From: Comamonadaceae bacterium
GTDB lineage: Bacteria > Pseudomonadota > Gammaproteobacteria > Burkholderiales > Burkholderiaceae_C
DNA: 64,000 nt
Reading direction: 5' to 3'
NCBI GenBank assembly: GCA_947454955.1
Contig: CANGLW010000007.1
Span: 28,915 to 92,914 of the forward strand
Shown: piece by piece, positions 41,281 to 54,827 of the stretch
Layout: the number at the start of each line of letters is the position of its first letter
Position numbering within the stretch: position 1 is the first letter of the stretch
Notes under the pieces: generated by a model
What the model was told of the DNA's origin: nothing
Database searches by the model: none
Seen by the model: only the letters and a program-made list of their open reading frames with translations
Program-made: the position numbers and the translations under genes

Positions 41281-42456
41281 ATGAATGCGAAAACCCTGAC
41301 CCTGTCTCTGAGCCTGATCGCTGCAGCCACCCTGGTGGCTTGTGGCAAAAAAGAAGAGGCGCCTAAAGCTGCCGCACCCGCTGCGGTGGTGGTGAAAATC
41401 GGCCACGTGGGCCCGATCAGCGGCGCCATTGCCCACCTGGGCAAAGACAACGAAAACGGCGCGCGCCTGGCGGTTGAAGAACTCAACGCCGCGGGCGTGA
41501 CCATCAACGGCCAAAAAGTCACCCTGGAACTGGTGGCTGAAGACGACGCCGCCGACCCCAAACAAGGCACCGCCGTGGCGCAAAAGCTGGTCGACGCCAA
41601 AGTGGCCGGTGTGGTGGGCCACCTCAACTCAGGCACCACCATTCCGGCTTCCAAAATTTACAGCGACGCAGGCATCCCGCAAATTTCGCCCTCGGCCACC
41701 AACCCCAAATACACCCGCCAGGGCTTCAAAACGGCTTTTCGCGTGGTGGCTGATGACGTGCACCTGGGCTCCACCCTGGGCCAGTACGCGGTGAAAACGC
41801 TGAGTGCGAAAACCATCGCCGTCATTGACGACCGCACCGCTTATGGCCAGGGCGTGGCTGAAGAGTTCACCAAAGCCGCCGAAGCCGCAGGTGCCAAGAT
41901 TGTGGACAAGCAGTTCACCAACGACAAAGCCACCGACTTCAACGCCATCCTGACCGCCATCAAGGCCAAAAAGCCTGATGTGATCTTCTTCGGCGGCATG
42001 GACGCGGTGGGCGGCCCCATGCTCAAGCAAATGAAATCGCTGGGCATCAAGGCCAAGTTCATGGGCGGTGACGGCATTTGCACCACCGACCTGATCAAGT
42101 TCGCGGGCGACGCCATCGGTGAAGAGCAGGTGTTCTGCGCTGAAGCCGGTGGTGTGGAAGGCGAGGGCAAGGCCGGCATGGACGACTTCCGCGCCAAGTT
42201 CAAAACCAAGTTCAACGCCGATGTGCAGCTTTACTCGCCCTATGTGTACGACGCGGTCAAGGTCATGGTGGCAGCCATGGTCAAAGCCAATTCGTCGGAC
42301 CCCGCCAAGTACCTGAGCGAGCTGGCCGCCACGGCCGACTACAAAGGCGTGACCGGCCCCATCACCTTTGACGAGAAGGGCGACATCAAAAACGGCGCGC
42401 TCACCTTGCTGACCTACAAAGGCGGCCAGCGCACCCAGTTGGCCGTCATCCGCTGA
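41281..42456 (+). CDS. branched-chain amino acid ABC transporter substrate-binding lipoprotein (LivJ/K-like)
   Basis: Lipobox LVAC followed by the type-I PBP pattern VKIGHVGPISG...GKD..NGA.LAVEE.N. 391 aa. Confidence 0.85.
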   Translation: MNAKTLTLSLSLIAAATLVACGKKEEAPKAAAPAAVVVKIGHVGPISGAIAHLGKDNENGARLAVEELNAAGVTINGQKVTLELVAEDDAADPKQGTAVAQKLVDAKVAGVVGHLNSGTTIPASKIYSDAGIPQISPSATNPKYTRQGFKTAFRVVADDVHLGSTLGQYAVKTLSAKTIAVIDDRTAYGQGVAEEFTKAAEAAGAKIVDKQFTNDKATDFNAILTAIKAKKPDVIFFGGMDAVGGPMLKQMKSLGIKAKFMGGDGICTTDLIKFAGDAIGEEQVFCAEAGGVEGEGKAGMDDFRAKFKTKFNADVQLYSPYVYDAVKVMVAAMVKANSSDPAKYLSELAATADYKGVTGPITFDEKGDIKNGALTLLTYKGGQRTQLAVIR

Positions 42457-42512: not shown

Positions 42513-42602
42513 GGAGAGGTGGATGAGCGGTTTAAGTCACACGCCTGGAAAGCGTGCGTGGGGTAAAACCCACCGCGGGTTCGAATCCCGCCTTCTCCGC
42601 CA
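42513..42602 (+). tRNA. tRNA-Ser (GGA)
   Basis: GGAGAGGTGGATGAGCGG...CACGC-CTGGAAA-GCGTG... with a long variable arm and a GGTTCGAATCC T-loop, ending in CCA. 90 nt. Confidence 0.95.
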
Positions 42603-42609
42603 GATTGGA

Positions 42610-42641
42610 AAGCCCTGCACCTCACGGTGTGGGGCTTTTTT
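42610..42641 (+). terminator. rho-independent terminator after tRNA-Ser
   Basis: AAGCCCTGCACC-tcac-GGTGTGGGGCTT imperfect stem followed by TTTTT. Confidence 0.5.
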
Positions 42642-42773
42642 CATAGGGTTTTGGTGGGTTTTCAAGCTTGCTTTTCATTTGTAAGATCGATCCAAACCGT
42701 CGCCCGGCTCGCTGCCAGGCACCTGAGTTGGGCCGCATCTTCGGCCTGACCGTTGATCGGTTCTAGGGGGCCT

Positions 42774-43601
42774 ATGTCGCCAGCCAGCCAACTGCAGCGT
42801 TCCTCCGGGCTTGAGTCCGGTTCGCTAGACGCGTGCAAACGGTCATTGCTCTCGGTCATTGAATCGCAGATCGTGCCGCAACTCGTGCGCGCGCACGCTG
42901 ACCAACTCGCCAGCGGCCCCACACCGGCCACCCAACACCTCAACCCTAGCGAAGCCACGGTGGCGGAATTTGCCACCCAATGCCACCAGGAAGACGAGCG
43001 CGCCTGCTGGGATTTTGTCGACAGCTTGGTGCAAGAGCACCACAGCGTGCCAGAAATTTTGCTCAACCTCATCACCCCGGCAGCACGTTATTTGGGTGAG
43101 CTGTGGGTGCAAGACCGGCTGGATTTTTCGCACGTGACCCTGGGCCTGCTGCGCATGCAAAACATGACGCACCACTACGGCTTTTTGAACCGCCGCCCCT
43201 ACCACCAAGCCGGCCCCAAATACCGCGCCATGGTGGCCGCAGCACCGGGCTCGCAGCACTTGCTGGGCTTGGCCATGGTGTCGGAGTTCTTTGTGAACGA
43301 CGGCTGGGACGTCTCGGTGGAGGTGACCACCAGCGAACAAGCCTTGTTGGAGGCCGTGCACAAAGACTGGTTTGAGGTGCTGGGCCTCTCAGTGGGCTTG
43401 CTCGAGCAGCTCGACGGCTTGCCCGCGCTCATCCAGGGCTTGCGCCAGCGCTCGCTCAACCCGAAATTGGTGGTGATGCTGGGTGGGGCCGCCTTCACCC
43501 ACCCCGGCACGGTGGATCGACCTTACGGGGCCGATGCGGTCTGCTTGGAGCCACTGGCCGCCATGGCCATGGCGCGTGAGCTGGCGGGCAAATCCACATG
43601 A
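42774..43601 (+). CDS. cobalamin (B12)-binding domain protein (AerR/PpaA / CarH-C-terminal-like), no DNA-binding domain seen
   Basis: A helical B12-binding_2-like segment (LITPAARYLGELWVQDRLDFSHV) is followed by a Rossmann B12 domain with SQHLLG (xxHxxG lower-ligand motif) and VVMLGGAAF. ATG at 42774 follows GGGGG. Confidence 0.6.
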   Translation: MSPASQLQRSSGLESGSLDACKRSLLSVIESQIVPQLVRAHADQLASGPTPATQHLNPSEATVAEFATQCHQEDERACWDFVDSLVQEHHSVPEILLNLITPAARYLGELWVQDRLDFSHVTLGLLRMQNMTHHYGFLNRRPYHQAGPKYRAMVAAAPGSQHLLGLAMVSEFFVNDGWDVSVEVTTSEQALLEAVHKDWFEVLGLSVGLLEQLDGLPALIQGLRQRSLNPKLVVMLGGAAFTHPGTVDRPYGADAVCLEPLAAMAMARELAGKST

Positions 43602-45283
43602 AACACGCTGCCTGAACCCACCGTGCTTTGGTAGCTGATGCTGCCGTGCATGCTTTCTGCCAGCTGTTTGCACACCGCCAAGCCGATGCCCGCGCCCTCG
43701 TAGCCAAAGTCGGGCAGGGTGCCGCGGTAAAACGGCTCAAACACCCGTTCACCCACCGACGCGTCGATGCCCGGGCCTTGGTCGCGCACCGACAAGCGCA
43801 GCTGGCTGTTGCCCAGCAAGCGGCTGGAGACATGCACCTGGCTGCCCTCAAAGCTGTACTTGATGGCGTTGCTCAGCAGGTTGATGACCACCTGCTGCAA
43901 GCGCAGCGGGTCGGCCAACACCCATTCCCCGTCTTGCAAATCTTGGTGCAGGGTGATGCGCCGCTCCTGGGCCTGAGGGGCGAGCATGTTGCGGCAGGTT
44001 TGCACCACTTGTGCAAGCGATGTCGGTTTGAGCAGCGGCGCAGCCACACCCTGACCGGGTTTGAACTTGGTGATGTGCAGCAAGTCATTGACCAGGTTGA
44101 GCAAATGCCGCCCGCCTGAGAGCACGCTGGTGATGTGCTCTTCCTGCCGCTCGGTGGTGCCGCCTTCCATGCGCAAGAGCTGGGTGTAGCCCAAGATGGC
44201 GTTGAGCGGTGTGCGCAGCTCATGGCTCATGCGTGACAAAAATTCGCTCTTGGCGCGGTTGGCGGTTTCAGCAGCCTCGCGGGCTTCTTGAATTTGGGTG
44301 ATGTCAATGCTGATGCCGCGCATCAAGGTGGGTTTGCCCTGCGCGTCGCGCGCCACAATTTCGCCTCTGCCAAACAACCAAATCCAACGGCCATCGGCAT
44401 GACGGGCACGAAACGGGTGTTGGTAGACATCCATCTGGCCATTGAGGTAATCCTCGCGCAGTTGTTTGAGCATGGGCCAATCGTCTGGGTGCACCAGGCT
44501 GTCGAATTCAAAAGTTTCAAAACCGTCACCATCGTTCACAGGCAGACCCAAGAGCGCGCGCATGTACTTGTTGCCCACCCGCTGCTTCGTGACCAAATCG
44601 AGCTCCCACACCCCAAGCTTGGAGAGGTCAACGATGTTCTGCACATAGCCCATCAGGATTTCTTTGGCCATTTCGGCTTGCTTGCGCTGCGTCACGTTTT
44701 GGATGCTGCCCTCCACCACCAAGGGCTCGCCTTTGGACAGATAGCTTTTGCCCACCAAGGCAATCCACACCTCGTTGCCCATGCGGGTCACAAAGGGCAA
44801 CTCCATCTCAAACGTGCCACCCACCGGGGTGATTTTTTCGAGCTTTTGCAAGAAGCGCTCGCGGTCTGAGGGCTTTTTGAAGCCGCTCAAAAACTGTTCC
44901 AAGGTGTATTGCTTGGCGTCGGTCACGCCTTGGCTCAGCCACACATCGGCGCTGGCCTCAAAGGTTTTGTCTTTCACGTCGTAACGCCAGTAACCCAGGC
45001 GAGCCACCCGGCGCAAGCGCGACTCACGCCGCTGCAGCACGACAAAGTCCAGCATCACCCGGTAGCCCAGCCACAGCCCACTCAGGGTCAGCAGCAGGCC
45101 GGGCAGCCACATCAACAGCACCAACTGGCCGGCCATCTCAAGTTCGGCGTTGACCAGTTGGCGAAACACCACCAGGCTGAGCAAGAGGCTCAACAGCGTG
45201 GCAAGCAGCGCAGCGACGATGAACCACCCGCGCAACTGTTGCGGCTCAATGCGGCGCACCTGCAGGGGTAAGTTCTTCAACAA
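43523..45283 (-). CDS. membrane PAS-domain sensor histidine kinase (no receiver domain)
   Basis: Two N-terminal TM segments, two PAS-like regions, the H-box SRMSHELRTPLNAILGY, and N/G1/G2 boxes (LLSNAIKYS, DQGPGI, GAGIGL). TTG start 4 nt after the upstream kinase stop. Confidence 0.85.
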   Translation of the reverse strand: MLKNLPLQVRRIEPQQLRGWFIVAALLATLLSLLLSLVVFRQLVNAELEMAGQLVLLMWLPGLLLTLSGLWLGYRVMLDFVVLQRRESRLRRVARLGYWRYDVKDKTFEASADVWLSQGVTDAKQYTLEQFLSGFKKPSDRERFLQKLEKITPVGGTFEMELPFVTRMGNEVWIALVGKSYLSKGEPLVVEGSIQNVTQRKQAEMAKEILMGYVQNIVDLSKLGVWELDLVTKQRVGNKYMRALLGLPVNDGDGFETFEFDSLVHPDDWPMLKQLREDYLNGQMDVYQHPFRARHADGRWIWLFGRGEIVARDAQGKPTLMRGISIDITQIQEAREAAETANRAKSEFLSRMSHELRTPLNAILGYTQLLRMEGGTTERQEEHITSVLSGGRHLLNLVNDLLHITKFKPGQGVAAPLLKPTSLAQVVQTCRNMLAPQAQERRITLHQDLQDGEWVLADPLRLQQVVINLLSNAIKYSFEGSQVHVSSRLLGNSQLRLSVRDQGPGIDASVGERVFEPFYRGTLPDFGYEGAGIGLAVCKQLAESMHGSISYQSTVGSGSVFHVDLPASSRAMAMAASGSKQTASAP

Positions 45284-45287
45284 GGGC

Positions 45288-47900
45288 TTACACCGTACTT
45301 TCAGAGTCTTGGTTCACGCCGACCCGAGAAGTCTTGGGGGACGACGCATCCGTCACAAGCGGGCGAACCTCCGAGCGCATCTCGTTGTCGCCCTGGGGGC
45401 TGTCCGCGCCCGCGCTGTCTGGCGTGGCCAGCGGCAAATCCAGGTGGAACACGGTGCCGATGCCCAGCACGCTGTCAAAACTGATGTTGCCGCCCATTTG
45501 CTGCGCCAAGCGCAAGCTCACGGTCAGGCCAATGCCTGTGCCTTCTGTGGTCTGTTGGGCGTCTTGGCTGCGGTAGAAAGGCTCGAACACCTGTTGACCC
45601 ACATCCGCAGCAATGCCCGGCCCCTGGTCGCGCACCGACAGACGCAGCACCTGGGGGGAGGGCAGGCTCACCTCCAGGCTGATGGTGGTGTGTGCCTCGG
45701 TGTACTTGATGGCATTGGCCAAAATATTGATGACGCACTGCTGCGCGCGCAGGGTGTCGGCCATCACCCAATGCTCGGCCGAGATGCGGTTGCGCAGGAC
45801 CAGCTGTTTCTCGGTCATCAGCGGCTGCATGAGGTTGATGCAGCGCAGGCACAACTCGCTCATGTTCACAGCTTGCGGCTTGAGGGGAACGGCCTGTGGG
45901 TCGTCGCGGGTGATTTGCAGCAGGTCGTTGATGAGGTTGAGCAAATGCCGCGAGCCGGCCAGCACCGCGTTCACATGGTCTTGCTCTTGCGCCTCGAGGT
46001 GGGGGCTCAAGCGCAGCAGCTGGGTGTAGCCCATGATGGCGTTGAGCGGCGTGCGCAGTTCGTGGCTCATGCGCGAGAGGAAACGGGTCTTGGCCTGGTT
46101 GGCTTCTTCAGCGTCGATGCGGGCTTGGTGCAGCTCGGTCGCGTCAATCGCGGTGCCGCGCATCACGGTGGGTTTGCCCGTGTCGTCGAAGGCCATGAAC
46201 TGCCCCTCAATGACCAGAAAAACCCAATGCCCATCGGTGTGCTGTATGCGGCACTGCGATTTGAAAACCGCAGACTTGCCAGCCAAATAATCTGCCCGTG
46301 CTTGGCGCATGGCTGGCAGGTCTTGAGGGTGAACCTTGGCCGTCCAGTCATGGGCCATAAACTCTTGGCCTGGCGCCATGGTCAAGCCCAACATGTCGTG
46401 CAGGTAGCGGTTGATGCGTCGCTCATCACTGGGAATATCAAACTCCCAAACACCGAGCTTGGACCAGTCCACAATGTTTTTCACCGCATGGCGCAAGCTC
46501 TCGGCGGCCAGCTCGGCTTCTTTGCGTTTGGTGATGTTTTGCACCGAGCCTTCAATCCAGCCCCGGCTGGCAGGTTCCTGGCTTAAGGTTCCGTTAACCA
46601 GGCCCCAGCCTTGGGCGCCGTTGTCACGGTTGTGCATCAGCAGCTCGAGCTCGAAACCTTGACCCGTTAACAAGGTGTTTTGGATGGCCACCTGAAACGC
46701 TTGGCGGTCTGCATCGGTGTCAAAACACGCCAGCCAGGCTTGCCAGAGTTGCTGCGGGTTGCCCTTGATGGACAGGGTTTTGTGAAACACCCCGCTCAAT
46801 TCCAGATGTTTGGTGCTGGGGTTGAAGCGCCAATAGCCCAAACCAGCAATGCGGCGTATGGATGCCTCTCGTTGGCGAAAGGTTTCAATGGCCAATGAGC
46901 GGCGGTAAAGCAAGCCAACGGCCGTGAGCAAGAGCACCAGGCCTGAGCCCCAAATGCCCGAGACCAGTTGCGCGTTGCTCTGCAAGACCTTTTTCAACTC
47001 CACAGGGCTCACCCAAGACACCATGGTGAACTTGGGGCTGCGAACCATGGCCTGCTCTTTGGGGTCTGCCCACACCATGCGCCGCCAGACCAGGCCGTGG
47101 TCCCCCTCACCAAACACTTGCGTTTGCATGTTGGCCCACAACTCAGGGTGTTCCTTCTGAACGACCCGCAAATCACTGATGGCCGCGCTGTTGTCACCTT
47201 GTGACTGCCCCGATGCGTTGACCAAGCTCATGCGGGGTAACTCTGCGCCCGCTGTATCGTTGGCATACCCGCGCATGAAGCGCAGCATATCGACACCGAT
47301 CAACACATGGCCGCGCGCTGCACCTTGTGCGTCAGGAACGGCAATGGCCCCGTAAATCAGCGGTTTTGTTGACTTGGCTTCTTCGTTTTTGATAGCAACG
47401 AGGTCTGAAAACCAAAGCTCATGGGGCTTGATGTTGAGGGCCTCAAGAAGCTGCTCGGGCAGGACAAGTTCGGTACTTGAGCTTTGGGGCGAGGGTTTGC
47501 CATCGGCACGCCATAGGTTTTGCAGAACCTGCCCTTGAGGGCTCACCCACAGCACATGGTTGATGATCGGGTTGATTCGAAACATCCGCGCAAGCACGGT
47601 GCCCAAGGCATCAGGGTCTTGAGTGTCTGCCGCAAACCTCTCATCTTGAGCATAGGCTTTGAGCAGCCCATGGAATCGCAGGCTCAGCAGTTCAAGTTGT
47701 CCCACAGAGGTGTTGACTTGCAACTGCCCGACCTGCTTGAGCCGCTTGAGGTCCCGTTCGTTGAGCTGTTGCACCACCAATGCAGCGGTGACCACCGTGA
47801 TGGCGGTGAGCAAAAGGGCCAAGAACGCAAAGCCTTTGCCCAAACGGCTGTGCGTGTTGAGCTTGAAAGCTTGTAACCACCCCGAAAAACGAGACAACAT
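45288..47900 (-). CDS. sensor histidine kinase with large periplasmic (Cache-like) domain and PAS domains
   Basis: TM, ~280-aa periplasmic region, TM, two PAS-like regions, then the H-box SRMSHELRTPLNAIMGY and an HATPase domain. It is a paralogue of the downstream kinase. The start is the ATG at 47900 or the TTG at 47927. Confidence 0.85.
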   Translation of the reverse strand: MLSRFSGWLQAFKLNTHSRLGKGFAFLALLLTAITVVTAALVVQQLNERDLKRLKQVGQLQVNTSVGQLELLSLRFHGLLKAYAQDERFAADTQDPDALGTVLARMFRINPIINHVLWVSPQGQVLQNLWRADGKPSPQSSSTELVLPEQLLEALNIKPHELWFSDLVAIKNEEAKSTKPLIYGAIAVPDAQGAARGHVLIGVDMLRFMRGYANDTAGAELPRMSLVNASGQSQGDNSAAISDLRVVQKEHPELWANMQTQVFGEGDHGLVWRRMVWADPKEQAMVRSPKFTMVSWVSPVELKKVLQSNAQLVSGIWGSGLVLLLTAVGLLYRRSLAIETFRQREASIRRIAGLGYWRFNPSTKHLELSGVFHKTLSIKGNPQQLWQAWLACFDTDADRQAFQVAIQNTLLTGQGFELELLMHNRDNGAQGWGLVNGTLSQEPASRGWIEGSVQNITKRKEAELAAESLRHAVKNIVDWSKLGVWEFDIPSDERRINRYLHDMLGLTMAPGQEFMAHDWTAKVHPQDLPAMRQARADYLAGKSAVFKSQCRIQHTDGHWVFLVIEGQFMAFDDTGKPTVMRGTAIDATELHQARIDAEEANQAKTRFLSRMSHELRTPLNAIMGYTQLLRLSPHLEAQEQDHVNAVLAGSRHLLNLINDLLQITRDDPQAVPLKPQAVNMSELCLRCINLMQPLMTEKQLVLRNRISAEHWVMADTLRAQQCVINILANAIKYTEAHTTISLEVSLPSPQVLRLSVRDQGPGIAADVGQQVFEPFYRSQDAQQTTEGTGIGLTVSLRLAQQMGGNISFDSVLGIGTVFHLDLPLATPDSAGADSPQGDNEMRSEVRPLVTDASSPKTSRVGVNQDSESTV

Positions 47901-48060
47901 CACCTGAAAAGCCACCGACCGGCGCAAATATTTGATAGCTGATTTTTATCATGTTTTTATCATTTTTCGCACTTAGGGGAATTGTTGATAGGCGCTTTCA
48001 TCCAAGCAAATGCAGGGTGTTTAGCCCGTATTTCCTGTCGTTTCCTGGCATTCGTAGGTT

Positions 48061-49455
48061 TTAAGGCAATAGCAGCGACAACTCGGGGTTGTCCACCGCG
48101 CTGGTGTCGCGGTCGTACAGGTCTTGGCGGGTCAGCGGCACCGGCCAGGCGCCGTGATCGGGTTTGGCAGCCAAAATTTGGTGCAGCCCGGTGCCGCCAG
48201 CTTCAAATTCCAGCGCGCAGGCGGCCATGTACAAGCGCCATACCCGGTAGGTACGCTCACCCACCAGGGCCATGGCCTGTTCGCGCTGGGCTTCCAGGCG
48301 CGTGACCCAATGCCGCAAGGTCAGAGCGTAGTGGGGGCGCAGGGCTTCGATGTCCACAATCTCAAAACCTGCGCGCTCCATGCCCAGCGAGATGTTGCTC
48401 ACGCAGTCCAGCTCGCCGTCGGGGAACACATAACGGTTGATGAACTCGGTGGCCACGCTGCGGTGCCAACCTTCCTCGTCGTGGGTGATGCCGTGATTCA
48501 AAAACAGCCCGCCAGGCTTGAGCAAGCGGTGCACTTGCGCGTTGTACTGCGGCAAGTTGGCCAGGCCTACGTGCTCAAACATGCCCACGCTGCTGATGCG
48601 GTCAAACTGCGCCTCTTGCACGTCGCGGTAGTCGCACAGCGCCACGGTCACGCGGCCTTGCAGGCCCTCGCGCTGGATGCGTTCCTGCGCGTAGGCCAGT
48701 TGTTCTTGGCTTAAGGTGATGCCGTGCGCGCGCACACCGTGGTGCTTGGTCGCCCAACACACCAAAGCGCCCCAGCCGCAGCCGATGTCGAGCAGCGTGT
48801 GGCCGGGTTGCAGGCGCAGCTTGCGGCAAATGTGTTCGAGCTTGTTGCGCTGGGCCTGGTCCAGGCTGTCTTGCGGTGTGCTGAAGTAGGCGCATGAATA
48901 CACCCGCGCCTCGTCCAGCCACAGGCCGTAAAAGTCGTTGGACACATCGTAGTGAAAAGCGATGGCGGCCTGGTCGCTGGCTTTGGTGTGTTGATGCTCA
49001 AAGTGATGTTTGCTTTGCTGCTTGGCGTGCTGTTTTGCTCCGTTGGGCTTGCTTGTCTTGCTATGGTTTTTGATGTTCTGCCCAGCGTCGGCTTCAAGTG
49101 AAACTGCGTGTTTGGGCAGGTTCAGCGCGTCGAGCCACAGGCTCCAGCGATCACGCCAGCTCAACTGCAGGTGCGAGAAATGGTCTTTGAGCGAAAGCAC
49201 CTCGTAAATATCGCCTTCCACATCCAGCAGGTCGTCAAAGTAGGCCTGGGCCAGCAGCAGCGGGTCGGGCTTTAAAACAAGCTGACGCAGCAGAGACGGG
49301 TCGCGCAAGACCAGGGTGAAGGCCGGTGCGGCTTGCCCCAGGGCGTGGCGGGTGTTGTCCCACAGGCGTATGGCCGCGTTACCGCGGTAGCCCTGCATGA
49401 GGCGCTCAAAAATACGCAGGGCAGGTTGCTCAGTTCGCAGGGCGGTGGTGGTCAT
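48061..49455 (-). CDS. cfa: cyclopropane-fatty-acyl-phospholipid synthase family SAM methyltransferase
   Basis: HYDVSNDFY, YSCAYF and LLDIGCGWG (SAM motif I) are typical of CFA synthases. It has a K/Q/H-rich insertion at residues ~121-160. Confidence 0.85.
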   Translation of the reverse strand: MTTTALRTEQPALRIFERLMQGYRGNAAIRLWDNTRHALGQAAPAFTLVLRDPSLLRQLVLKPDPLLLAQAYFDDLLDVEGDIYEVLSLKDHFSHLQLSWRDRWSLWLDALNLPKHAVSLEADAGQNIKNHSKTSKPNGAKQHAKQQSKHHFEHQHTKASDQAAIAFHYDVSNDFYGLWLDEARVYSCAYFSTPQDSLDQAQRNKLEHICRKLRLQPGHTLLDIGCGWGALVCWATKHHGVRAHGITLSQEQLAYAQERIQREGLQGRVTVALCDYRDVQEAQFDRISSVGMFEHVGLANLPQYNAQVHRLLKPGGLFLNHGITHDEEGWHRSVATEFINRYVFPDGELDCVSNISLGMERAGFEIVDIEALRPHYALTLRHWVTRLEAQREQAMALVGERTYRVWRLYMAACALEFEAGGTGLHQILAAKPDHGAWPVPLTRQDLYDRDTSAVDNPELSLLLP

Positions 49456-49807
49456 GAGGTGACTTTCGTGAGGGAGGAAAAGTCAGTCTAAAAACGCTGT
49501 GCTGCGAAAGTTTGATGTTGCTCAAGCTTCTGTTTTGATAGCAATACTGCAATACGCAGCAAGGCTTGGTGCACACAAACGCTTGAGATTTGTCAAAGCA
49601 ATTTGTGTGGGTGTGGCTACAGTCAACTTGCCACTGCACGATGTGTCACGCAACCACCCTTGAAGATTTGGGGGGTGAGGGGCCAGGGCCGAACGTCGAA
49701 GCTGCCAACGCTTCTGGGTGTGACGTGATCTGTCACAGACGCGAACGCTCCCCCCGGTTGCCGCGCTTCGCGCAATGACTGCGTGCGGTGGCAACCTTGA
49801 AAGGCTT

Positions 49808-49841
49808 GAACCATGATCTCTCGAACCATGATCTCTCGAAC
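49808..49841. repeat. 15-bp tandem duplication spanning the start codon of the Spy/CpxP-like gene
   Basis: GAACCATGATCTCTC occurs twice (49808-49822 and 49823-37) and is followed by GAAC. This gives two in-frame ATGs and the N-terminus MISRTMISRT. Confidence 0.9.
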
Positions 49842-50328
49842 TGTAGGCACCTTGAGCTTGTTGGCATGTTGCCTCACCCTCGCACATGCCCAAACCACCC
49901 CACGCACCGACCCGGCGCCCGCTGGCGATGTCGCGAGCCCTTCGCCAGGCATGGGTGGCCATGGACCGGGGGCGATGGGCCGCTGGATGAACGAGCGCAT
50001 GAGCAAGGTGCACCAGCGCCAGTTGGATGTGCTGAAAAAAGAGTTGCACCTCAAGCCTGACCAGGAGGTTGCCTGGACCACCTACGACAAAGCCATGAAC
50101 GCGCCGCTGGAGGGCTGGGGCGCTGCGCCCAAGAAAGACCTCTACAAGCTCACCACGCCCGAGCGCCTGGACGCCATGAACCAGCACATGCAGCAAATGC
50201 AAACCTTCCACCAGCAACGCGCCAACGCCACCAAGGCGCTGTACGGCGCGCTCACCCCCGAGCAGCAAAAGATCTTCGACACCCAAACCCGCCGCGGCCC
50301 AGGCCTCATGCACTGCGACCGCGACTGA
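49813..50328 (+). CDS. Spy/CpxP-family periplasmic protein (LTxxQ motif)
   Basis: Signal peptide (LLACCLTLAHAQ), a helical Q/K-rich body, and LTPEQQKIFD (LTxxQ). The start is at 49813 or 49828. Confidence 0.7.
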   Translation: MISRTMISRTVGTLSLLACCLTLAHAQTTPRTDPAPAGDVASPSPGMGGHGPGAMGRWMNERMSKVHQRQLDVLKKELHLKPDQEVAWTTYDKAMNAPLEGWGAAPKKDLYKLTTPERLDAMNQHMQQMQTFHQQRANATKALYGALTPEQQKIFDTQTRRGPGLMHCDRD

Positions 50329-50464: not shown

Positions 50465-52729
50465 ATGAAATTTCGCTTTCCCATCGTCATCATTGACGAA
50501 GACTTCCGCTCGGAAAACACCTCCGGTTTGGGCATCCGTGCGCTGGCGCAGGCCATCGAGTCTGAGGGCTACGAGGTCATGGGCGCTACCAGTTACGGCG
50601 ACCTGAGCCAGTTCGCGCAGCAGCAAAGCCGCGCCAGCGCCTTCATTTTGTCGATTGACGACGAGGAATTCACCCCCGGCCCCGACCTGGACCCCGCGGT
50701 TTTGAATTTGCGTCACTTCATTGAAGAGGTGCGCTTTAAAAACGCCGATGTGCCGATCTATATCTACGGCGAAACCAAAACCTCGCGCCATTTGCCCAAC
50801 GACATCTTGCGCGAGTTGCATGGCTTCATTCACATGTTTGAGGACACGCCCGAGTTCGTGGCGCGTCACATCATCCGCGAAGCCAAGTCTTATTTAGAAG
50901 GCCTCCAGCCCCCGTTTTTCAAGGCGCTGTTGGATTACGCCGAAGACGGCTCCTACTCCTGGCATTGCCCCGGACACTCCGGTGGCGTGGCGTTTTTGAA
51001 GAGCCCGGTGGGCCAGATGTTCCACCAGTTTTTCGGTGAGAACATGCTGCGCGCTGACGTGTGCAACGCGGTGGAAGAACTCGGCCAGCTGCTCGACCAC
51101 GACGGTGCGATTGGCGAGAGCGAGCGCAACGCCGCGCGGATCTTCAACGCCGACCACTGCTTTTTTGTGACCAACGGCACCAGCACCTCCAACAAAATGG
51201 TGTGGCACCACGCGGTGGCCCCGGGCGACGTGGTGGTGGTGGATCGCAACTGCCACAAGTCGGTGCTGCACGCCATCATCATGACCGGCGCGGTGCCCGT
51301 GTTTTTGAAGCCCACGCGCAACCATTTCGGCATCATCGGCCCGATCCCTAAAAGCGAGTTCGAGCCCGTAGCCATCCAGGCCAAGATCAAGGCCAACCCT
51401 TTGCTCAAAGGAGTGGATGCGAAAAAGGTCAAGCCGCGCATGCTCACGCTCACGCAAAGCACCTACGACGGCGTACTCTACAACACCGAGACCATCAAGC
51501 ACCAACTTGACGGCTATGTGGACAACCTGCACTTTGACGAGGCTTGGTTGCCGCACGCGGCCTTCCACCCGTTTTACGGCACCTTCCACGCCATGGGCAA
51601 AAAGCGCCCACGCCCGAAAAACTCGGTGGTGTACGCTACCCAGTCCATCCACAAGTTGCTGGCGGGCATCAGCCAGGCCAGCCATGTGCTGGTGCAAGAC
51701 TCGCAAAACACCAAGCTGGACCGCCACCTCTTCAACGAGGCGTATTTGATGCACACCAGCACCAGCCCGCAGTACAGCATCATTGCCAGCTGCGACGTGG
51801 CTGCGGCCATGATGGAGCCACCCGGCGGCACCGCGCTGGTGGAGGAAAGCATTGCCGAGGCCATCGATTTCCGCCGCGCCATGCGCAAGGTGGACGAGGA
51901 ATATGGCAAAGACTGGTGGTTCAAGGTGTGGGGCCCCGAGAAGATGACCGAAGACGGCATCGGCCGCGCGGAAGACTGGGTCATCAAGGCCGACACCAAG
52001 TCGAGCAAATGGCACGGCTTTGGCAAGTTGGCCGACGGCTTCAACATGCTCGACCCGATCAAGGCCACCATCGTCACCCCGGGCATGGACCTCAACGGCA
52101 AGTTCGACAAGACCGGCATTCCCGCGAGCATCGTGACCAAGTTTTTGGCCGAGCACGGCGTGATTGTGGAAAAGACGGGCCTGTACAGCTTCTTTGTGAT
52201 GTTCACCATCGGCATCACCAAGGGCCGCTGGAACTCGCTCTTGACCGCGTTGCAGCAGTTCAAAGACGACTATGACAAGAACCAGCCGATGTGGCGCATC
52301 TTGCCGGAGTTCTGCCAGAAGCACCGCCGCTACGAGCGCATGGGCCTGCGCGATTTGTGCCAGCACATCCACGCCATGTACGCCAAGTACGACATCGCGC
52401 GTTTGACGACCGAGATGTACCTGAGCGACTTGACACCCGCCATGAAGCCCAGCGACGCCTACGCCCACATTGCCCAGCGCAAAACCGAGCGTGTGCCGAT
52501 TGACGACCTGGAAGGCCGCATCACCGTGGGCTTGGTCACACCTTACCCACCCGGCATTCCTTTGCTGGTGCCTGGTGAGGTGTTCAACCGCAAAATCGTC
52601 GACTACCTCAAGTTCTCACGCGAATTCAACCAGCAGTGCCCGGGCTTTGAGACCGACATCCACGGCCTGGTGGAGGTGGAAGACGACGACGGGAAACGCA
52701 GTTACTTTGCGGACTGCGTCAAACTTTAA
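50465..52729 (+). CDS. Orn/Lys/Arg decarboxylase, large (wing + PLP + C-terminal) type
   Basis: 754 aa with an N-terminal receiver-like wing domain. CPGHSGG and SIHKLL (PLP lysine) motifs are as in LdcC/AdiA/SpeF-type enzymes. Substrate cannot be assigned by eye. Confidence 0.9.
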   Translation: MKFRFPIVIIDEDFRSENTSGLGIRALAQAIESEGYEVMGATSYGDLSQFAQQQSRASAFILSIDDEEFTPGPDLDPAVLNLRHFIEEVRFKNADVPIYIYGETKTSRHLPNDILRELHGFIHMFEDTPEFVARHIIREAKSYLEGLQPPFFKALLDYAEDGSYSWHCPGHSGGVAFLKSPVGQMFHQFFGENMLRADVCNAVEELGQLLDHDGAIGESERNAARIFNADHCFFVTNGTSTSNKMVWHHAVAPGDVVVVDRNCHKSVLHAIIMTGAVPVFLKPTRNHFGIIGPIPKSEFEPVAIQAKIKANPLLKGVDAKKVKPRMLTLTQSTYDGVLYNTETIKHQLDGYVDNLHFDEAWLPHAAFHPFYGTFHAMGKKRPRPKNSVVYATQSIHKLLAGISQASHVLVQDSQNTKLDRHLFNEAYLMHTSTSPQYSIIASCDVAAAMMEPPGGTALVEESIAEAIDFRRAMRKVDEEYGKDWWFKVWGPEKMTEDGIGRAEDWVIKADTKSSKWHGFGKLADGFNMLDPIKATIVTPGMDLNGKFDKTGIPASIVTKFLAEHGVIVEKTGLYSFFVMFTIGITKGRWNSLLTALQQFKDDYDKNQPMWRILPEFCQKHRRYERMGLRDLCQHIHAMYAKYDIARLTTEMYLSDLTPAMKPSDAYAHIAQRKTERVPIDDLEGRITVGLVTPYPPGIPLLVPGEVFNRKIVDYLKFSREFNQQCPGFETDIHGLVEVEDDDGKRSYFADCVKL

Positions 52730-52921: not shown

Positions 52922-54277
52922 TTATCGCGATATTAATGGCCGAATCAGCCAAAGGGTCAACATCAGCAGCAGTATTTCCAGACCATAGACCACGCTGTAG
53001 CCCGAAGCGCTGCCCACCGCCAGGGTGAGCACGTCGCGGAAAATACCACCCAAAGCCATGCCCAAACCGCCGGCGGTGGCTTGCGCAGCACCCCACGCGC
53101 CCAGGGCCAGGCCCACTTGTTCTTTGGGGGCCATTTGCATGGTGTTGGTCAGTGTGCCGTGGCCAAACAGGCCGCCGCCCAGACCAATCAAAAACACACC
53201 CACGCCAAAAACCCATACAGATAACCAGGGTGCGGCCAAAATCACCGCGGCAAACGCTGGGATGCCCACACGCGCACCCAGGCGGGCCATGCGCATCGGG
53301 TCCACGCCCCGCGCCAGCACTTTGGAGGCCCAGGCAAAGCCCATCAAGCCGCCTCCTGCCAGTGTGGCGGTGAGCAGGGTGGTGGCTGACACGCTCATGC
53401 CCAACACCTCGCCGCCATAAGGCTCCAGCAGCACGTCTTCCATGGTGAAGGCCATGGTGCCCACCGCCACCACTGCCATGCGGCGTATCGCGTGTTGGCC
53501 TTGGCTAAAGCTGGCCCAGACTTCTGAAAAACTGCCCTCGGTGGGTGTGCCGGGTTTGCGCATGCGGCTACGGGCTTCTTGCTTCCACACCGCCACCACA
53601 TTGAGCACCATGGTGGTCAGCGCTGTGCCTTGCACCACCTGAATGAGTTGGCCCGGGCTGTATTCAGCCAGCAATTGCCCAAACACCAAGGCGCTGAAAA
53701 TCATGCCCACCAGGAGCATCACGTACATCAGGCCCACCACTTTGGGGTGGTCTTGTTGTGGGGCCAAATCGGTGGCCAGGGCCAGGCCCACGGTTTGGGT
53801 GGTGTGGATGCCTGCACCCACCAGCAAAAATGCCACCGCAGCGCCCATTTGCCCAACCCAAGCTGGCGCGCTGTGCGACTGGCCCGCACCGGCCAACACC
53901 AACAAGGCAAAAGGCATGATGGCAAAGCCACCGAATTGCAAAAGCGTGCCCATCCAGATGTAAGGCACACGGCGCCAACCCAACTCAGAGCGGTGGTTGT
54001 CTGACTTGAAGCCAATCAGGGCGCGTGCGGGGGCGAAGAGCAGGGGCAGCGAGACCATGATGGCCACCAGGGCTGCGGGCACTTTGAGCTCCACAATCAT
54101 CACCCGGTTGAGCGTGCCCACCAGCATGACCATGGCCATGCCGACTGAAATTTGAAACAAGGAAAGCCGGAGCAAACGGCTCAACGGCAAGTTGTCCGAC
54201 GCGGCGTCGGCAAAGGGCAAAAAACGCGTGCCCAGGGTCACCCAGCTGTGTGCGAGTTTTCGGGGTTGGGTGGACAT
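52922..54277 (-). CDS. pucC: BCD-family MFS protein PucC/LhaA (light-harvesting complex assembly)
   Basis: 12-TM MFS. The N-terminus ...FLPFADAASDNLPLSRLLRLSLFQISVGMA.V.L.GTLNRVMIVEL matches my memory of the PucC/LhaA/Bch2 family. It is directly downstream of the antenna genes. Confidence 0.85.
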   Translation of the reverse strand: MSTQPRKLAHSWVTLGTRFLPFADAASDNLPLSRLLRLSLFQISVGMAMVMLVGTLNRVMIVELKVPAALVAIMVSLPLLFAPARALIGFKSDNHRSELGWRRVPYIWMGTLLQFGGFAIMPFALLVLAGAGQSHSAPAWVGQMGAAVAFLLVGAGIHTTQTVGLALATDLAPQQDHPKVVGLMYVMLLVGMIFSALVFGQLLAEYSPGQLIQVVQGTALTTMVLNVVAVWKQEARSRMRKPGTPTEGSFSEVWASFSQGQHAIRRMAVVAVGTMAFTMEDVLLEPYGGEVLGMSVSATTLLTATLAGGGLMGFAWASKVLARGVDPMRMARLGARVGIPAFAAVILAAPWLSVWVFGVGVFLIGLGGGLFGHGTLTNTMQMAPKEQVGLALGAWGAAQATAGGLGMALGGIFRDVLTLAVGSASGYSVVYGLEILLLMLTLWLIRPLISR

Positions 54278-54283
54278 AGAAAT

Positions 54284-54309
54284 GGGTCGGGGCCTTGCAA
54301 CCCCGACCC
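54284..54309 (-). promoter_or_regulatory. intercistronic stable hairpin between pucA and pucC
   Basis: Perfect 9-bp GC-rich stem GGGTCGGGG / CCCCGACCC with an 8-nt loop. On the coding strand it is followed by AUUUCU. Confidence 0.55.
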
Positions 54310-54323
54310 GAGTGCGGGAAGCG

Positions 54324-54512
54324 TTACTTCTTCGCCGCGTCTGCAGGCGCCGTCACAGCAGCTTTAACGCCACCGTTCAAGAAGCCTTTGACCCAGGTCG
54401 TGTTGGACACGATGGCCAGGTGCACGCTGAAGGAACCGATCGCCACGGCAGCCAGGAACACTGGGATGCCGACGGATGGTTTCACAACACACCACATTTT
54501 GGAATAAATCAT
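54324..54512 (-). CDS. pucA: light-harvesting (LH2-type) alpha polypeptide
   Basis: MIYSKMWCVVKPSVGIPVFLAAVAIGSFSVHLAIVSNTTW... has one TM helix with the BChl-ligand His and an Ala/Pro-rich C-terminal tail. It closely resembles Rubrivivax gelatinosus PucA as I remember it. GGGAG RBS. Confidence 0.8.
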   Translation of the reverse strand: MIYSKMWCVVKPSVGIPVFLAAVAIGSFSVHLAIVSNTTWVKGFLNGGVKAAVTAPADAAKK

Positions 54513-54524
54513 GATGCGCTCCCT

Positions 54525-54677
54525 TTACTTCAGCCAGGGTGAGTAGATATAGGCCAGCAAATGCGCGAATGCAGCAATCATTCCGAATATTTGCGTGCCC
54601 TGGATGAGGTTGCGGTGCACCTCTTCCGATTCGGCCTCGGTCAATCCCGTGGGCCAGACTTTGTCTTTATCAGACAT
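54525..54677 (-). CDS. pucB: light-harvesting (LH2-type) beta polypeptide, 50 aa, absent from ORF track
   Basis: Hand translation: MSDKDKVWPTGLTEAESEEVHRNLIQGTQIFGMIAAFAHLLAYIYSPWLK. It shows the conserved E-E-x-H and AHLL....PWL antenna-beta signatures. AAGGAG RBS lies upstream of the ATG (54675-54677). Confidence 0.8.
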   Translation of the reverse strand: MSDKDKVWPTGLTEAESEEVHRNLIQGTQIFGMIAAFAHLLAYIYSPWLK

Positions 54678-54783
54678 AGTTTGTTCTCCTTAGTTAAGAA
54701 GCTCACAAACGTGCTTAAACCCGCACGAGGGCACTTCACAACCACCTTTGATTGCAAAGCAGCCGGGCTGGAACCCCGCTACC

Positions 54784-54827
54784 TGTAATCTAGACCTTAC
54801 TGCTATTAATGTCAATTAGATAAGACA
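54784..54827 (-). promoter_or_regulatory. puc promoter with paired PpsR/CrtJ-type palindromes
   Basis: In gene orientation the sequence reads TGTCTTATCTAATTGACA (perfect TGT-N12-ACA, 54810-54827), an 8-bp spacer, then AGTAAGGTCTAGATTACA (half-degenerate, 54784-54801). TTGACA (54810-54815), 17 nt, then TAGATT (54787-54792) forms a sigma70-like -35/-10 embedded in the two sites. Confidence 0.5.

What the first reader, a model, noticed from the sequence alone, without database searches (positions are those of the whole stretch)
42774..47927. B12-binding-domain protein next to two tandem paralogous PAS histidine kinases with no response regulator
A 275-aa protein consists only of a helical B12-binding_2-like segment plus a Rossmann B12-binding domain (SQHLLG lower-ligand motif). 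I see no HTH. This is the architecture of AerR/PpaA-type antirepressors and of the CarH light-sensing module.

It converges on an operon of two sensor kinases whose PAS and catalytic cores are clearly paralogous: the H-boxes SRMSHELRTPLNAILGYTQLLRM and SRMSHELRTPLNAIMGYTQLLRL are nearly identical. One kinase has a ~280-aa periplasmic Cache-like domain; the other has only a short loop.

Neither kinase carries a receiver domain, and no response regulator is encoded nearby. The locus sits 7-11 kb from a pucBAC antenna operon with a PpsR-type operator.

My inference is that this may be a light/B12/redox input module for antenna expression, or a kinase pair working as a heterodimer with a distal regulator.
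Basis: partly seen in the sequence, partly recalled or inferred. Interest (0 to 1): 0.62.

Follow-up and report, generated by a model that had tools for sequence, protein, structure and literature searches.

The report
Second AerR-type B12 sensor beside kinases
A freshwater photosynthetic bacterium carries a second, undescribed type of vitamin-B12-binding light/redox sensor protein, encoded away from its usual partner gene and next to two sensor kinases found only beside this protein, which hints at a B12-based input to kinase signalling.

Summary
Window 42774-43601 (+) encodes a 275-aa protein made only of a helical cap and a Rossmann B12-binding domain. It converges on two PAS histidine kinases without receiver domains, and the whole 102.7-kb contig has no response regulator.

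The B12 protein is AerR/PpaA-like: AerR (7TE2) is its best sequence and fold match, and the B12-contact residues are kept. It is not the genome's canonical AerR, which lies beside ppsR on another contig.

It belongs to a separate, 100/100-supported paralogue clade ("AerR2") that is never ppsR-adjacent and has an invariant Cys21. The clade was found only in this bacterial family, almost always alongside a second, ppsR-type copy (adjacency checked for most), and it often sits next to bchO.

In the window's subclade the gene has left the photosynthesis cluster. In 6 of 11 contexts it lies within four genes of a histidine kinase of some kind.

The two kinases are old paralogues (43.5% identical). 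The short one is the type-A kinase that lost its periplasmic dCache domain. All four known members of this kinase clade lie next to this B12 gene.

My best reading is a B12/light accessory sensor for the kinases (about 0.45). The main rival is a second PpsR co-regulator with unrelated kinase neighbours (about 0.35). I rate it a new variant of a known kind, of moderate interest.

The parts
42513..42602 (+). tRNA-Ser(GGA). It marks the start of a variable island between the conserved PBP6 and Orn/Lys/Arg decarboxylase genes.
   Evidence: ARAGORN and Rfam. A terminator-like hairpin lies at 42620-42634. Genus synteny is shown.
42774..43601 (+). AerR2: a stand-alone cobalamin-binding protein of the AerR/PpaA family, 275 aa. 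Key residues: Cys21 (42834-36), Trp111 (43104-06), Phe118 (43125-27), His120 (43131-33), lower-ligand His162 (43257-59), Ser206 and Gly238.
   Evidence: Pfam; PDB sequence match to AerR 7TE2, E = 2e-9; AF2 model with pLDDT 79, top fold hit 7TE2; clade-invariant residues; tree; codon positions.
43523..43601 (.). 79-bp convergent overlap of the 3' ends of the B12 gene and the short kinase gene. It is a by-product of losing the intergenic terminator.
   Evidence: In L039 the genes are separated by 34 bp that include a hairpin followed by a T-run. The kinase tail encoded in the overlap is not conserved.
43523..45283 (-). Type-A PAS histidine kinase ('HKshort', 586 aa). It has two TM helices with a loop of about 10-14 aa, two PAS-like regions, and HisKA + HATPase_c. 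The phospho-acceptor is His354 (44222-44224). It has lost the periplasmic domain.
   Evidence: Pfam; TM scan. It is 69.6% identical over 513 aa to the long kinase of L039, which keeps a periplasmic domain. Tree; motifs.
45288..47927 (-). Type-B dCache-PAS histidine kinase ('HKlong', 879 aa from the TTG start; a likely ATG start lies at 47900). The periplasmic domain spans residues 53-320. The phospho-acceptor is His622 (46062-46064).
   Evidence: Pfam; 42% identical along its whole length to the G319 kinase; sister to it in the tree, 99/96; dCache-type fold matches.
47928..48060 (-). AT-rich upstream region of the kinase operon. It contains no PpsR-type palindrome.
   Evidence: Sequence; TGT-N12-ACA scan; no sigma-70 consensus found.
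48061..50313 (-). The rest of the island: a cyclopropane-fatty-acid synthase-like gene (48061-49455) and a 263-aa protein with no family match (49522-50313).
   Evidence: Pfam. Among the 13 genus genomes examined, these genes occupy this site only in G000 and G319.
52922..54827 (-). Displaced LH2 antenna operon: pucB (54525-54677), pucA (54324-54512) and pucC (52922-54277), with a PpsR-type TGT-N12-ACA site at 54810-54827.
   Evidence: Pfam PUCC; ORFs; motif scan. Inserted between the decarboxylase and FabI genes only in G000 and G319.

Best explanation
This is a three-gene sensory module.

**The sensor.** The 275-aa protein is a cobalamin-binding sensor of the AerR/PpaA family, from a distinct paralogue clade ('AerR2'). 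It is not the AerR that partners PpsR, which is encoded on another contig. It has no output domain, so it must act by binding another protein.

**Proposed mechanism.**
1. It holds B12 between the helical cap (Trp111, Phe118) and the Rossmann domain (His162).
2. Light, B12 supply or thiol redox (invariant Cys21, near-invariant Cys70) changes its conformation.
3. In one state it docks on the cytoplasmic PAS region of the adjacent kinases, as AerR and AppA dock on the PAS region of CrtJ/PpsR, and alters their autophosphorylation.
4. The type-B kinase adds a periplasmic dCache input. The type-A kinase has lost its own.
5. The signal leaves through an unlinked response regulator. The displaced pucBAC antenna operon 5-7 kb away is a plausible target.

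**Shown:** fold, ligand residues, paralogy, gene neighbourhoods and kinase phylogeny.

**Inferred:** B12 binding, the docking partner and the output.
For: **Identity as an AerR-family B12 sensor**
- Best PDB sequence hit is AerR 7TE2 (E = 2e-9), with AerR W94, F101, H145, T189 and G220 matched by W111, F118, H162, S206 and G238.
- The AF2 model has pLDDT 79, and 7TE2 is its top fold hit.

**A distinct paralogue**
- The canonical AerR-PpsR pair lies on contig C32.
- A 100/100 clade of 29 proteins is never ppsR-adjacent.

**Link to kinases**
- The four kinases found next to this gene form a private 100/100 clade. The nearest relatives found are at most 39% identical, both in same-genus genomes and in the scan of 185,579 species genomes.
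- Each paralogue type occurs alone beside the B12 gene in another genome (L039 has type A, G319 has type B).
- In the window's subclade, 6 of 11 contexts have a histidine kinase of some kind within four genes:
  - convergent dCache-PAS kinase
  - KaiC-like ATPase plus hybrid kinase, twice
  - divergent PAS kinase, twice
  - HbpS-like gene beside a kinase-regulator pair
- In the rest of the clade the count is 0 of 11. Fisher p = 0.012 to 0.026; binomial p = 4e-5 to 0.013.
- His120 is shared only by the kinase-linked proteins and their closest relatives.

**Precedent.** HbpS, a protein that binds haem and aquo-cobalamin, controls the kinase SenS (PMC4991794). Operons combining B12-binding and kinase genes have been reported bioinformatically (PMC8717448).
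Against: - The B12 gene and the kinases are convergent, not co-transcribed.
- The three loci with this kinase clade share wider synteny, so their adjacency may be inherited rather than selected.
- In G319 the B12 gene is split by a frameshift.
- None of the 150 best library representatives is fused to a kinase.
- Every studied family member acts on PpsR/CrtJ.
- The kinases seen in other contexts belong to unrelated families.
- The context counts were compiled after the fact and are not fully independent.
- No sequence similarity was found between the kinase PAS regions and PpsR.
Confidence: 0.45

Rival explanations
1. AerR2 is a second cobalamin-dependent co-regulator of PpsR, as AppA acts beside PpaA in Rhodobacter sphaeroides. 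The two kinases would then be functionally unrelated neighbours that share a variable island.
For: - All characterised relatives bind PpsR/CrtJ (PMC9144470, PMC6199135).
- The clade occurs only in genomes that also carry a second, ppsR-type AerR-like copy; ppsR adjacency of that copy was checked for most of them.
- Eight clade members sit next to bchO/bchIDO at the edge of the photosynthesis gene cluster, in two of the three subclades.
- The puc promoter nearby has a PpsR-type site.
- The island also carries unrelated genes, such as the CFA synthase.
Against: - It does not explain why the gene repeatedly lands near kinases after leaving the cluster.
- It does not explain why the kinase clade is known only from beside this gene.
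- No PpsR palindrome lies in the B12 or kinase promoters.
Confidence: 0.35
2. The two kinases work as an obligate pair. The short kinase, lacking a sensor domain, would depend on the long one through heterodimerisation or cross-phosphorylation.
For: - The genes are 4 nt apart on the same strand.
- The short kinase lost its periplasmic domain only here.
- Both genes are kept in a strain about 95% identical.
- Both have intact H, N, G1, F and G2 boxes.
Against: - They are only 43.5% identical.
- The duplication is old, and each type occurs alone elsewhere.
- Kinases this diverged normally homodimerise (general knowledge).
Confidence: 0.2
3. The locus is decaying. The short kinase is truncated, the terminator is deleted, and the module no longer functions.
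For: - The periplasmic domain and the intergenic terminator have both been lost.
- The B12 gene is frameshifted in G319.
Against: - All three reading frames are intact, with every catalytic and ligand residue present.
- The sequence is identical in several lake metagenomes, and both kinases persist in a strain about 95% identical.
Confidence: 0.08
4. It is a metabolic corrinoid carrier for a methyltransferase.
For: Weak NCBIfam matches to MtbC and MtgC. Some JGI automatic names say 'methanogenic corrinoid protein'.
Against: - Those scores are 21-22 bits against cut-offs of 350-370.
- No corrinoid methyltransferase or activase appears in any context.
- The best structural and sequence relative is AerR.
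Confidence: 0.03

Closest known systems
AerR (Rhodobacter capsulatus, PDB 7TE2) and PpaA (R. sphaeroides): cobalamin-binding co-regulators of CrtJ/PpsR
   Same: - Four-helix cap plus Rossmann B12 domain with no output domain.
- Lower-ligand His in the same loop, cap Trp/Phe, and the conserved Gly.
- Found only in phototrophs.
- An N-terminal helix is present, as in the long AerR isoform.
   Different: - Only about 21-33% identical.
- A separate paralogue clade that is never next to ppsR.
- Invariant Cys21, which canonical AerR lacks.
- The genome already has a ppsR-linked AerR.
- Here the gene sits beside kinases.
AppA SCHIC domain (R. sphaeroides): a second, haem-binding PpsR antirepressor
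   Same: The same fold. It is a precedent for a second AerR-like sensor acting in parallel with the canonical one.
   Different: - AppA has BLUF and Cys-rich domains.
- Its ligand His is shifted by two positions.
- The Pfam AppA_SCHIC score here is 17.7 bits, below the 28.6 cut-off.
CarH/LitR AdoCbl photoreceptor repressors
   Same: The B12-binding module, the lower His and the cap Trp.
   Different: - No MerR DNA-binding head.
- No Glu-His after the Trp.
- No His next to the Trp.
HbpS-SenS-SenR three-component system of Streptomyces (PMC4991794)
   Same: A separate tetrapyrrole-binding protein (haem or aquo-cobalamin) that modulates a histidine kinase. One subclade member (L248) is encoded beside an HbpS-like gene and a kinase-regulator pair.
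   Different: HbpS is secreted and has an unrelated fold. The interaction proposed here would be cytoplasmic.
Photoglobin/photocobilin B12 modules in two-component operons (PMC8717448)
   Same: A CarH/AerR-type B12 module genomically tied to kinases.
   Different: Those modules need a globin partner and are co-operonic or fused. No globin gene is present here, and the genes are convergent.
Tandem bacteriophytochrome kinases RpBphP2/RpBphP3 near pucBAd in Rhodopseudomonas palustris (from my own knowledge, not checked here)
   Same: Two adjacent paralogous light-linked kinases close to an antenna operon, signalling to separate regulators.
   Different: In those kinases the chromophore domain is fused to the kinase, and the sensor is a bilin rather than B12.

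Membership tests
AerR/PpaA family | Helical cap plus Rossmann B12-binding domain with no output domain | tested here: met
   Pfam; AF2 secondary structure; top fold hit 7TE2.
AerR/PpaA family | Lower axial His (AerR His145), cap Trp94/Phe101 and Gly220 | tested here: met
   His162, Trp111, Phe118 and Gly238 align with them and are invariant in 67 clade members.
AerR/PpaA family | Gene immediately upstream of ppsR/crtJ | tested here: not met
   ppsR lies on contig C32 beside another B12 gene that is 32% identical. None of the 29 clade members is ppsR-adjacent.
AerR/PpaA family | Upper-ligand His in the N-terminal region (His10 of long AerR) | tested here: inconclusive
   His41 is present here but is not conserved in the clade. 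Cys21 is the invariant residue instead.
AerR/PpaA family | Binds cobalamin and PpsR/CrtJ | not testable with these tools
   Requires biochemistry.
CarH/LitR photoreceptors | N-terminal MerR-type HTH | tested here: not met
   No HTH in Pfam.
CarH/LitR photoreceptors | W-x9-E-H motif in the cap | tested here: not met
   The sequence LW111VQDRLDFSHVT has Val121-Thr122 at W+10/+11.
Corrinoid proteins of methyltransferase systems (MtbC, MtgC) | Score above the family cut-off and an adjacent methyltransferase | tested here: not met
   21-22 bits against cut-offs of 350-370. No corrinoid methyltransferase partner in any context.
AppA SCHIC | Pfam PF21966 score above cut-off | tested here: not met
   17.7 bits against a cut-off of 28.6.
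HisKA-type sensor histidine kinases (both kinases) | H-box His plus N, G1, F and G2 boxes | tested here: met
   Pfam; motifs located.
Hybrid histidine kinases (TorS/ArcB/BarA-like, the best NCBIfam matches) | Receiver and HPt domains | tested here: not met
   No Response_reg domain. NCBIfam matches cover only the kinase core and fall far below cut-off.
dCache sensor domain (long kinase) | Periplasmic double-PDC fold between two TM helices | tested here: met
   Support is moderate only: Pfam is weak here, the G319 homologue scores above cut-off, and a pLDDT-61 model matches only dCache/double-PDC domains, down to E = 9e-6.
Photoglobin/photocobilin split sensors | Globin-fold partner gene beside the B12 gene | tested here: not met
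   Only tRNA-Ser lies upstream and the kinase downstream. No intervening ORF.

The most novel reading that the evidence does not exclude
An AerR-type cobalamin protein has switched partner from the PAS repressor PpsR to PAS histidine kinases. The result would be a split, B12-dependent light/redox-sensing two-component system that tunes LH2 antenna synthesis in freshwater aerobic phototrophs. A cysteine (Cys21), not a histidine, would serve as the light-state or redox ligand.
Probability: 0.25. Interest if true: 0.7.

Novelty: new variant of a known kind. Interest (0 to 1): 0.48.

Why it matters
AerR, PpaA and AppA are the textbook B12- and haem-based switches of photosystem expression, all working through PpsR/CrtJ.

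A second, conserved AerR paralogue in the betaproteobacterial phototrophs that are common in lakes is, as far as the searchable literature shows, undescribed. Its invariant cysteine and its habit of sitting at the bchO edge of the photosynthesis cluster are also unreported.

Its repeated association with kinases would extend B12 photoreception from transcription factors to two-component signalling through a detachable sensor subunit.

It also gives concrete, cheap experiments: one small soluble protein, two kinase cytoplasmic domains and one PpsR.

Tried and rejected
- **Metagenome scan for more orthologue contexts:** it gave one 1.7-kb contig.
- **PpsR-type palindromes:** none in the B12 or kinase promoters. 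The window total of 11 is below the chance expectation of 16.
- **Promoter and terminator scan:** nothing informative apart from the tRNA terminator.
- **Rfam:** only the tRNAs.
- **118 loci of distant kinase homologues:** none has an AerR-like neighbour, so the link is not a property of the wider kinase family.
- **BLASTP of the kinase against PpsR:** no similarity.
- **Search for B12-kinase fusions among the 150 best representatives:** none. One has a C-terminal HTH and one is a likely BchI gene-call fusion.
- **Joints in run X10 suggesting a strain without the long kinase:** they rest on 30-nt sides, and an X13 contig crossing the junction contradicts them, so I left this as unresolved.
- **Subfunctionalisation of long and short AerR isoforms into two genes:** dropped. 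Other genomes with AerR2 keep the N-terminal helix in their canonical AerR.
- **Class-level sampling:** no AerR2-type copy outside this family, but few phototrophs were sampled.
Full report
**Observation**

- The plus-strand ORF at 42774-43601 gives a 275-aa protein. PF02310 is above cut-off, PF02607 is just below it, and there is no DNA-binding or enzymatic domain.
- It converges on two minus-strand kinases, at 43523-45283 and 45288-47927, that are 4 nt apart. Each has PAS_3, HisKA and HATPase_c and no receiver domain.
- None of the genome's 27 receiver-domain matches lies on this 102.7-kb contig.
- pucC, pucA and pucB follow 5-7 kb beyond the kinases, with one TGT-N12-ACA site at 54810-54827.
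- Contigs from two independent lake studies cover 42576-48200 without a single difference. A strain about 95% identical keeps the junction between the two kinase genes.

**What the B12 protein is**

Its best solved relative by sequence is AerR of Rhodobacter capsulatus (7TE2, E = 2e-9), followed by the AppA SCHIC domain.
- In that alignment AerR Trp94, Phe101, His145, Thr189 and Gly220 correspond to Trp111, Phe118, His162, Ser206 and Gly238. PMC9144470 names the AerR residues as the cobalamin cap, lower ligand and tail contacts.
- All of these positions are invariant in 67 relatives.
- An AF2 model (pLDDT 79) shows an N-terminal helix, a four-helix bundle and a Rossmann domain. Its top fold match is again 7TE2.
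- The CarH motif W-x9-E-H is absent.
- Corrinoid-carrier models score 22 bits against cut-offs of 350.

**It is not the genome's AerR**

Contig C32 carries a 265-aa B12 protein directly upstream of a PAS + HTH_8 PpsR. The two B12 proteins are 32% identical.
- Across 301 genomes of the family, 51 have an AerR-like gene.
- Within the genus, 9 of 44 genomes have one, in every case two or three copies.
- A maximum-likelihood tree of 62 proteins places the ppsR-adjacent genes basally.
- It unites 29 genes that are never ppsR-adjacent in a 100/100 clade, which I call AerR2.
- The clade has an invariant Cys21 and a near-invariant Cys70 that canonical AerR lacks.
- Eight members lie beside bchO/bchIDO at the edge of the photosynthesis gene cluster, in two of the three subclades. 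That is probably the ancestral site.
- In this genome bchIDO sits on contig C16 with no B12 gene beside it.
- I found no description of such a paralogue in the searchable literature.

**The island**

Across the genus the backbone is PepM17 - PBP6 - [tRNA-Ser and a variable 3-9 kb segment] - Orn/Lys/Arg decarboxylase - FabI.

Among the 13 genus genomes examined, only this genome and G319 (Hylemonella sp. UBA6679) hold a B12 gene, kinase(s) and a CFA synthase in the variable segment, with pucBAC inserted after the decarboxylase.

A 69%-identical orthologue elsewhere is flanked by transposase genes, a BLUF gene and bchM. This fits a mobile gene.

**The kinases**

They are 43.5% identical. In a tree, the four kinases found next to this B12 gene form a 100/100 clade with two types:
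- Type A: the short kinase plus the L039 kinase.
- Type B: the long kinase plus the G319 kinase.

The L039 type-A kinase still has a periplasmic domain. The window's short kinase is therefore a type A that lost about 270 aa.

The long kinase's periplasmic part is dCache-like. The homologue scores above the Pfam cut-off, and the fold matches are exclusively dCache sensors, though from a weak model.

The nearest relatives found for this kinase clade are at most 39% identical, in same-genus genomes and in the species-genome scan. None of the 118 loci from that scan has an AerR-like neighbour.

The 79-bp gene overlap arose by deletion of the intergenic terminator that L039 still has. The overlapping kinase tail is not conserved.

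**Is the adjacency meaningful?**

The window's B12 protein sits in a 100/100 subclade on a long branch. I collected 11 contexts for this subclade.

Contexts with a histidine kinase within four genes (6 of 11):
- the convergent kinase of this clade (window, L039 and G319)
- a KaiC-like ATPase with a hybrid kinase, in two arrangements
- a divergent PAS kinase, twice
- an HbpS-like gene beside a kinase-regulator pair

Contexts without a kinase (5 of 11):
- a sigma-54 activator
- a DUF7379 gene
- transposase genes and a BLUF gene
- an ArsR-type gene
- nothing notable

None of the 11 contexts in the rest of the AerR2 clade has a kinase within 9 kb. Rough tests give p = 0.01-0.03 (Fisher) and p = 4e-5 to 0.013 (binomial). 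These counts were compiled after the fact and are not fully independent.

His120 is shared only by the kinase-linked proteins and their closest relatives.

Points against a functional link:
- The genes are convergent.
- The three loci with this kinase clade share synteny.
- The G319 B12 gene carries a frameshift.
- No kinase fusions occur among the near relatives.

**Verdict**

That this is an AerR-family cobalamin sensor of a distinct paralogue clade is well supported (about 0.85).

Its partner is not shown. I favour an accessory B12/light/redox sensor for the PAS kinases (0.45) over a second PpsR co-regulator with coincidental kinase neighbours (0.35). The two readings are not exclusive.

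I rate it a new variant of a known kind, of moderate interest.

Noticed in passing
window 43131-43133 (His120 of the B12 protein): His120 lies two residues after the cap Phe. It is shared only by the kinase-linked proteins (window, L039, G319) and their close relatives. All 10 other subclade members have Gln, Glu or Asp there.
   Followed up: partly
L040:3676-6960 and L041:1902-5243: Orthologues of the B12 protein (72% and 69% identical) lie next to a KaiC-like double-ATPase gene, a small ORF with no family match and a hybrid histidine kinase. This could be a B12 input to a KaiC-type timer.
   Followed up: no
L248:3665-7889: A 51%-identical orthologue is co-directional with an HbpS-like gene and a transthyretin-like gene, and divergent from a PhoQ-like kinase / OmpR-type regulator pair. 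The layout recalls the HbpS-SenS-SenR three-component system.
   Followed up: no
protein P0135 (389 aa, from the representative library): An AerR-like protein, 40% identical, carries a C-terminal XRE-type HTH (HTH_3/HTH_31). This would be a one-component, DNA-binding version of the family.
   Followed up: no
L005:8067-8240 (G319, Hylemonella sp. UBA6679): The B12 gene is split by a frameshift in the variable linker between the N-terminal helix and the cap. It could be a real pseudogene or a MAG assembly error.
   Followed up: partly
window 41281-42456 and 50465-52729 compared with L124: PBP6 and the decarboxylase are 98.6% and 99.7% identical between this genome and G319. PepM17, the CFA synthase, the B12 protein and the kinases are 78%, 73%, 67% and 42-48% identical. 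The region is a mosaic, which suggests recombination around the island.
   Followed up: no
L006:3467-4264 (own canonical AerR) and L079-L081: The ppsR-linked AerR of this genome, and look-alike copies in three congeners (ppsR adjacency not checked there), lack the N-terminal '...IIPRL..AHR' helix. AerR2 and most canonical AerR proteins keep it.
   Followed up: partly
window 45317-47905, runs X10 and X12: Short-sided joints in wastewater metagenome contigs hint at a strain variant without the long kinase. Other contigs from the same study cover that gene, so this stays unresolved.
   Followed up: partly
L244:210-5292: A 69%-identical orthologue is flanked by DDE and Mu-type transposase genes, with a BLUF-domain gene and bchM close by.
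   Followed up: no
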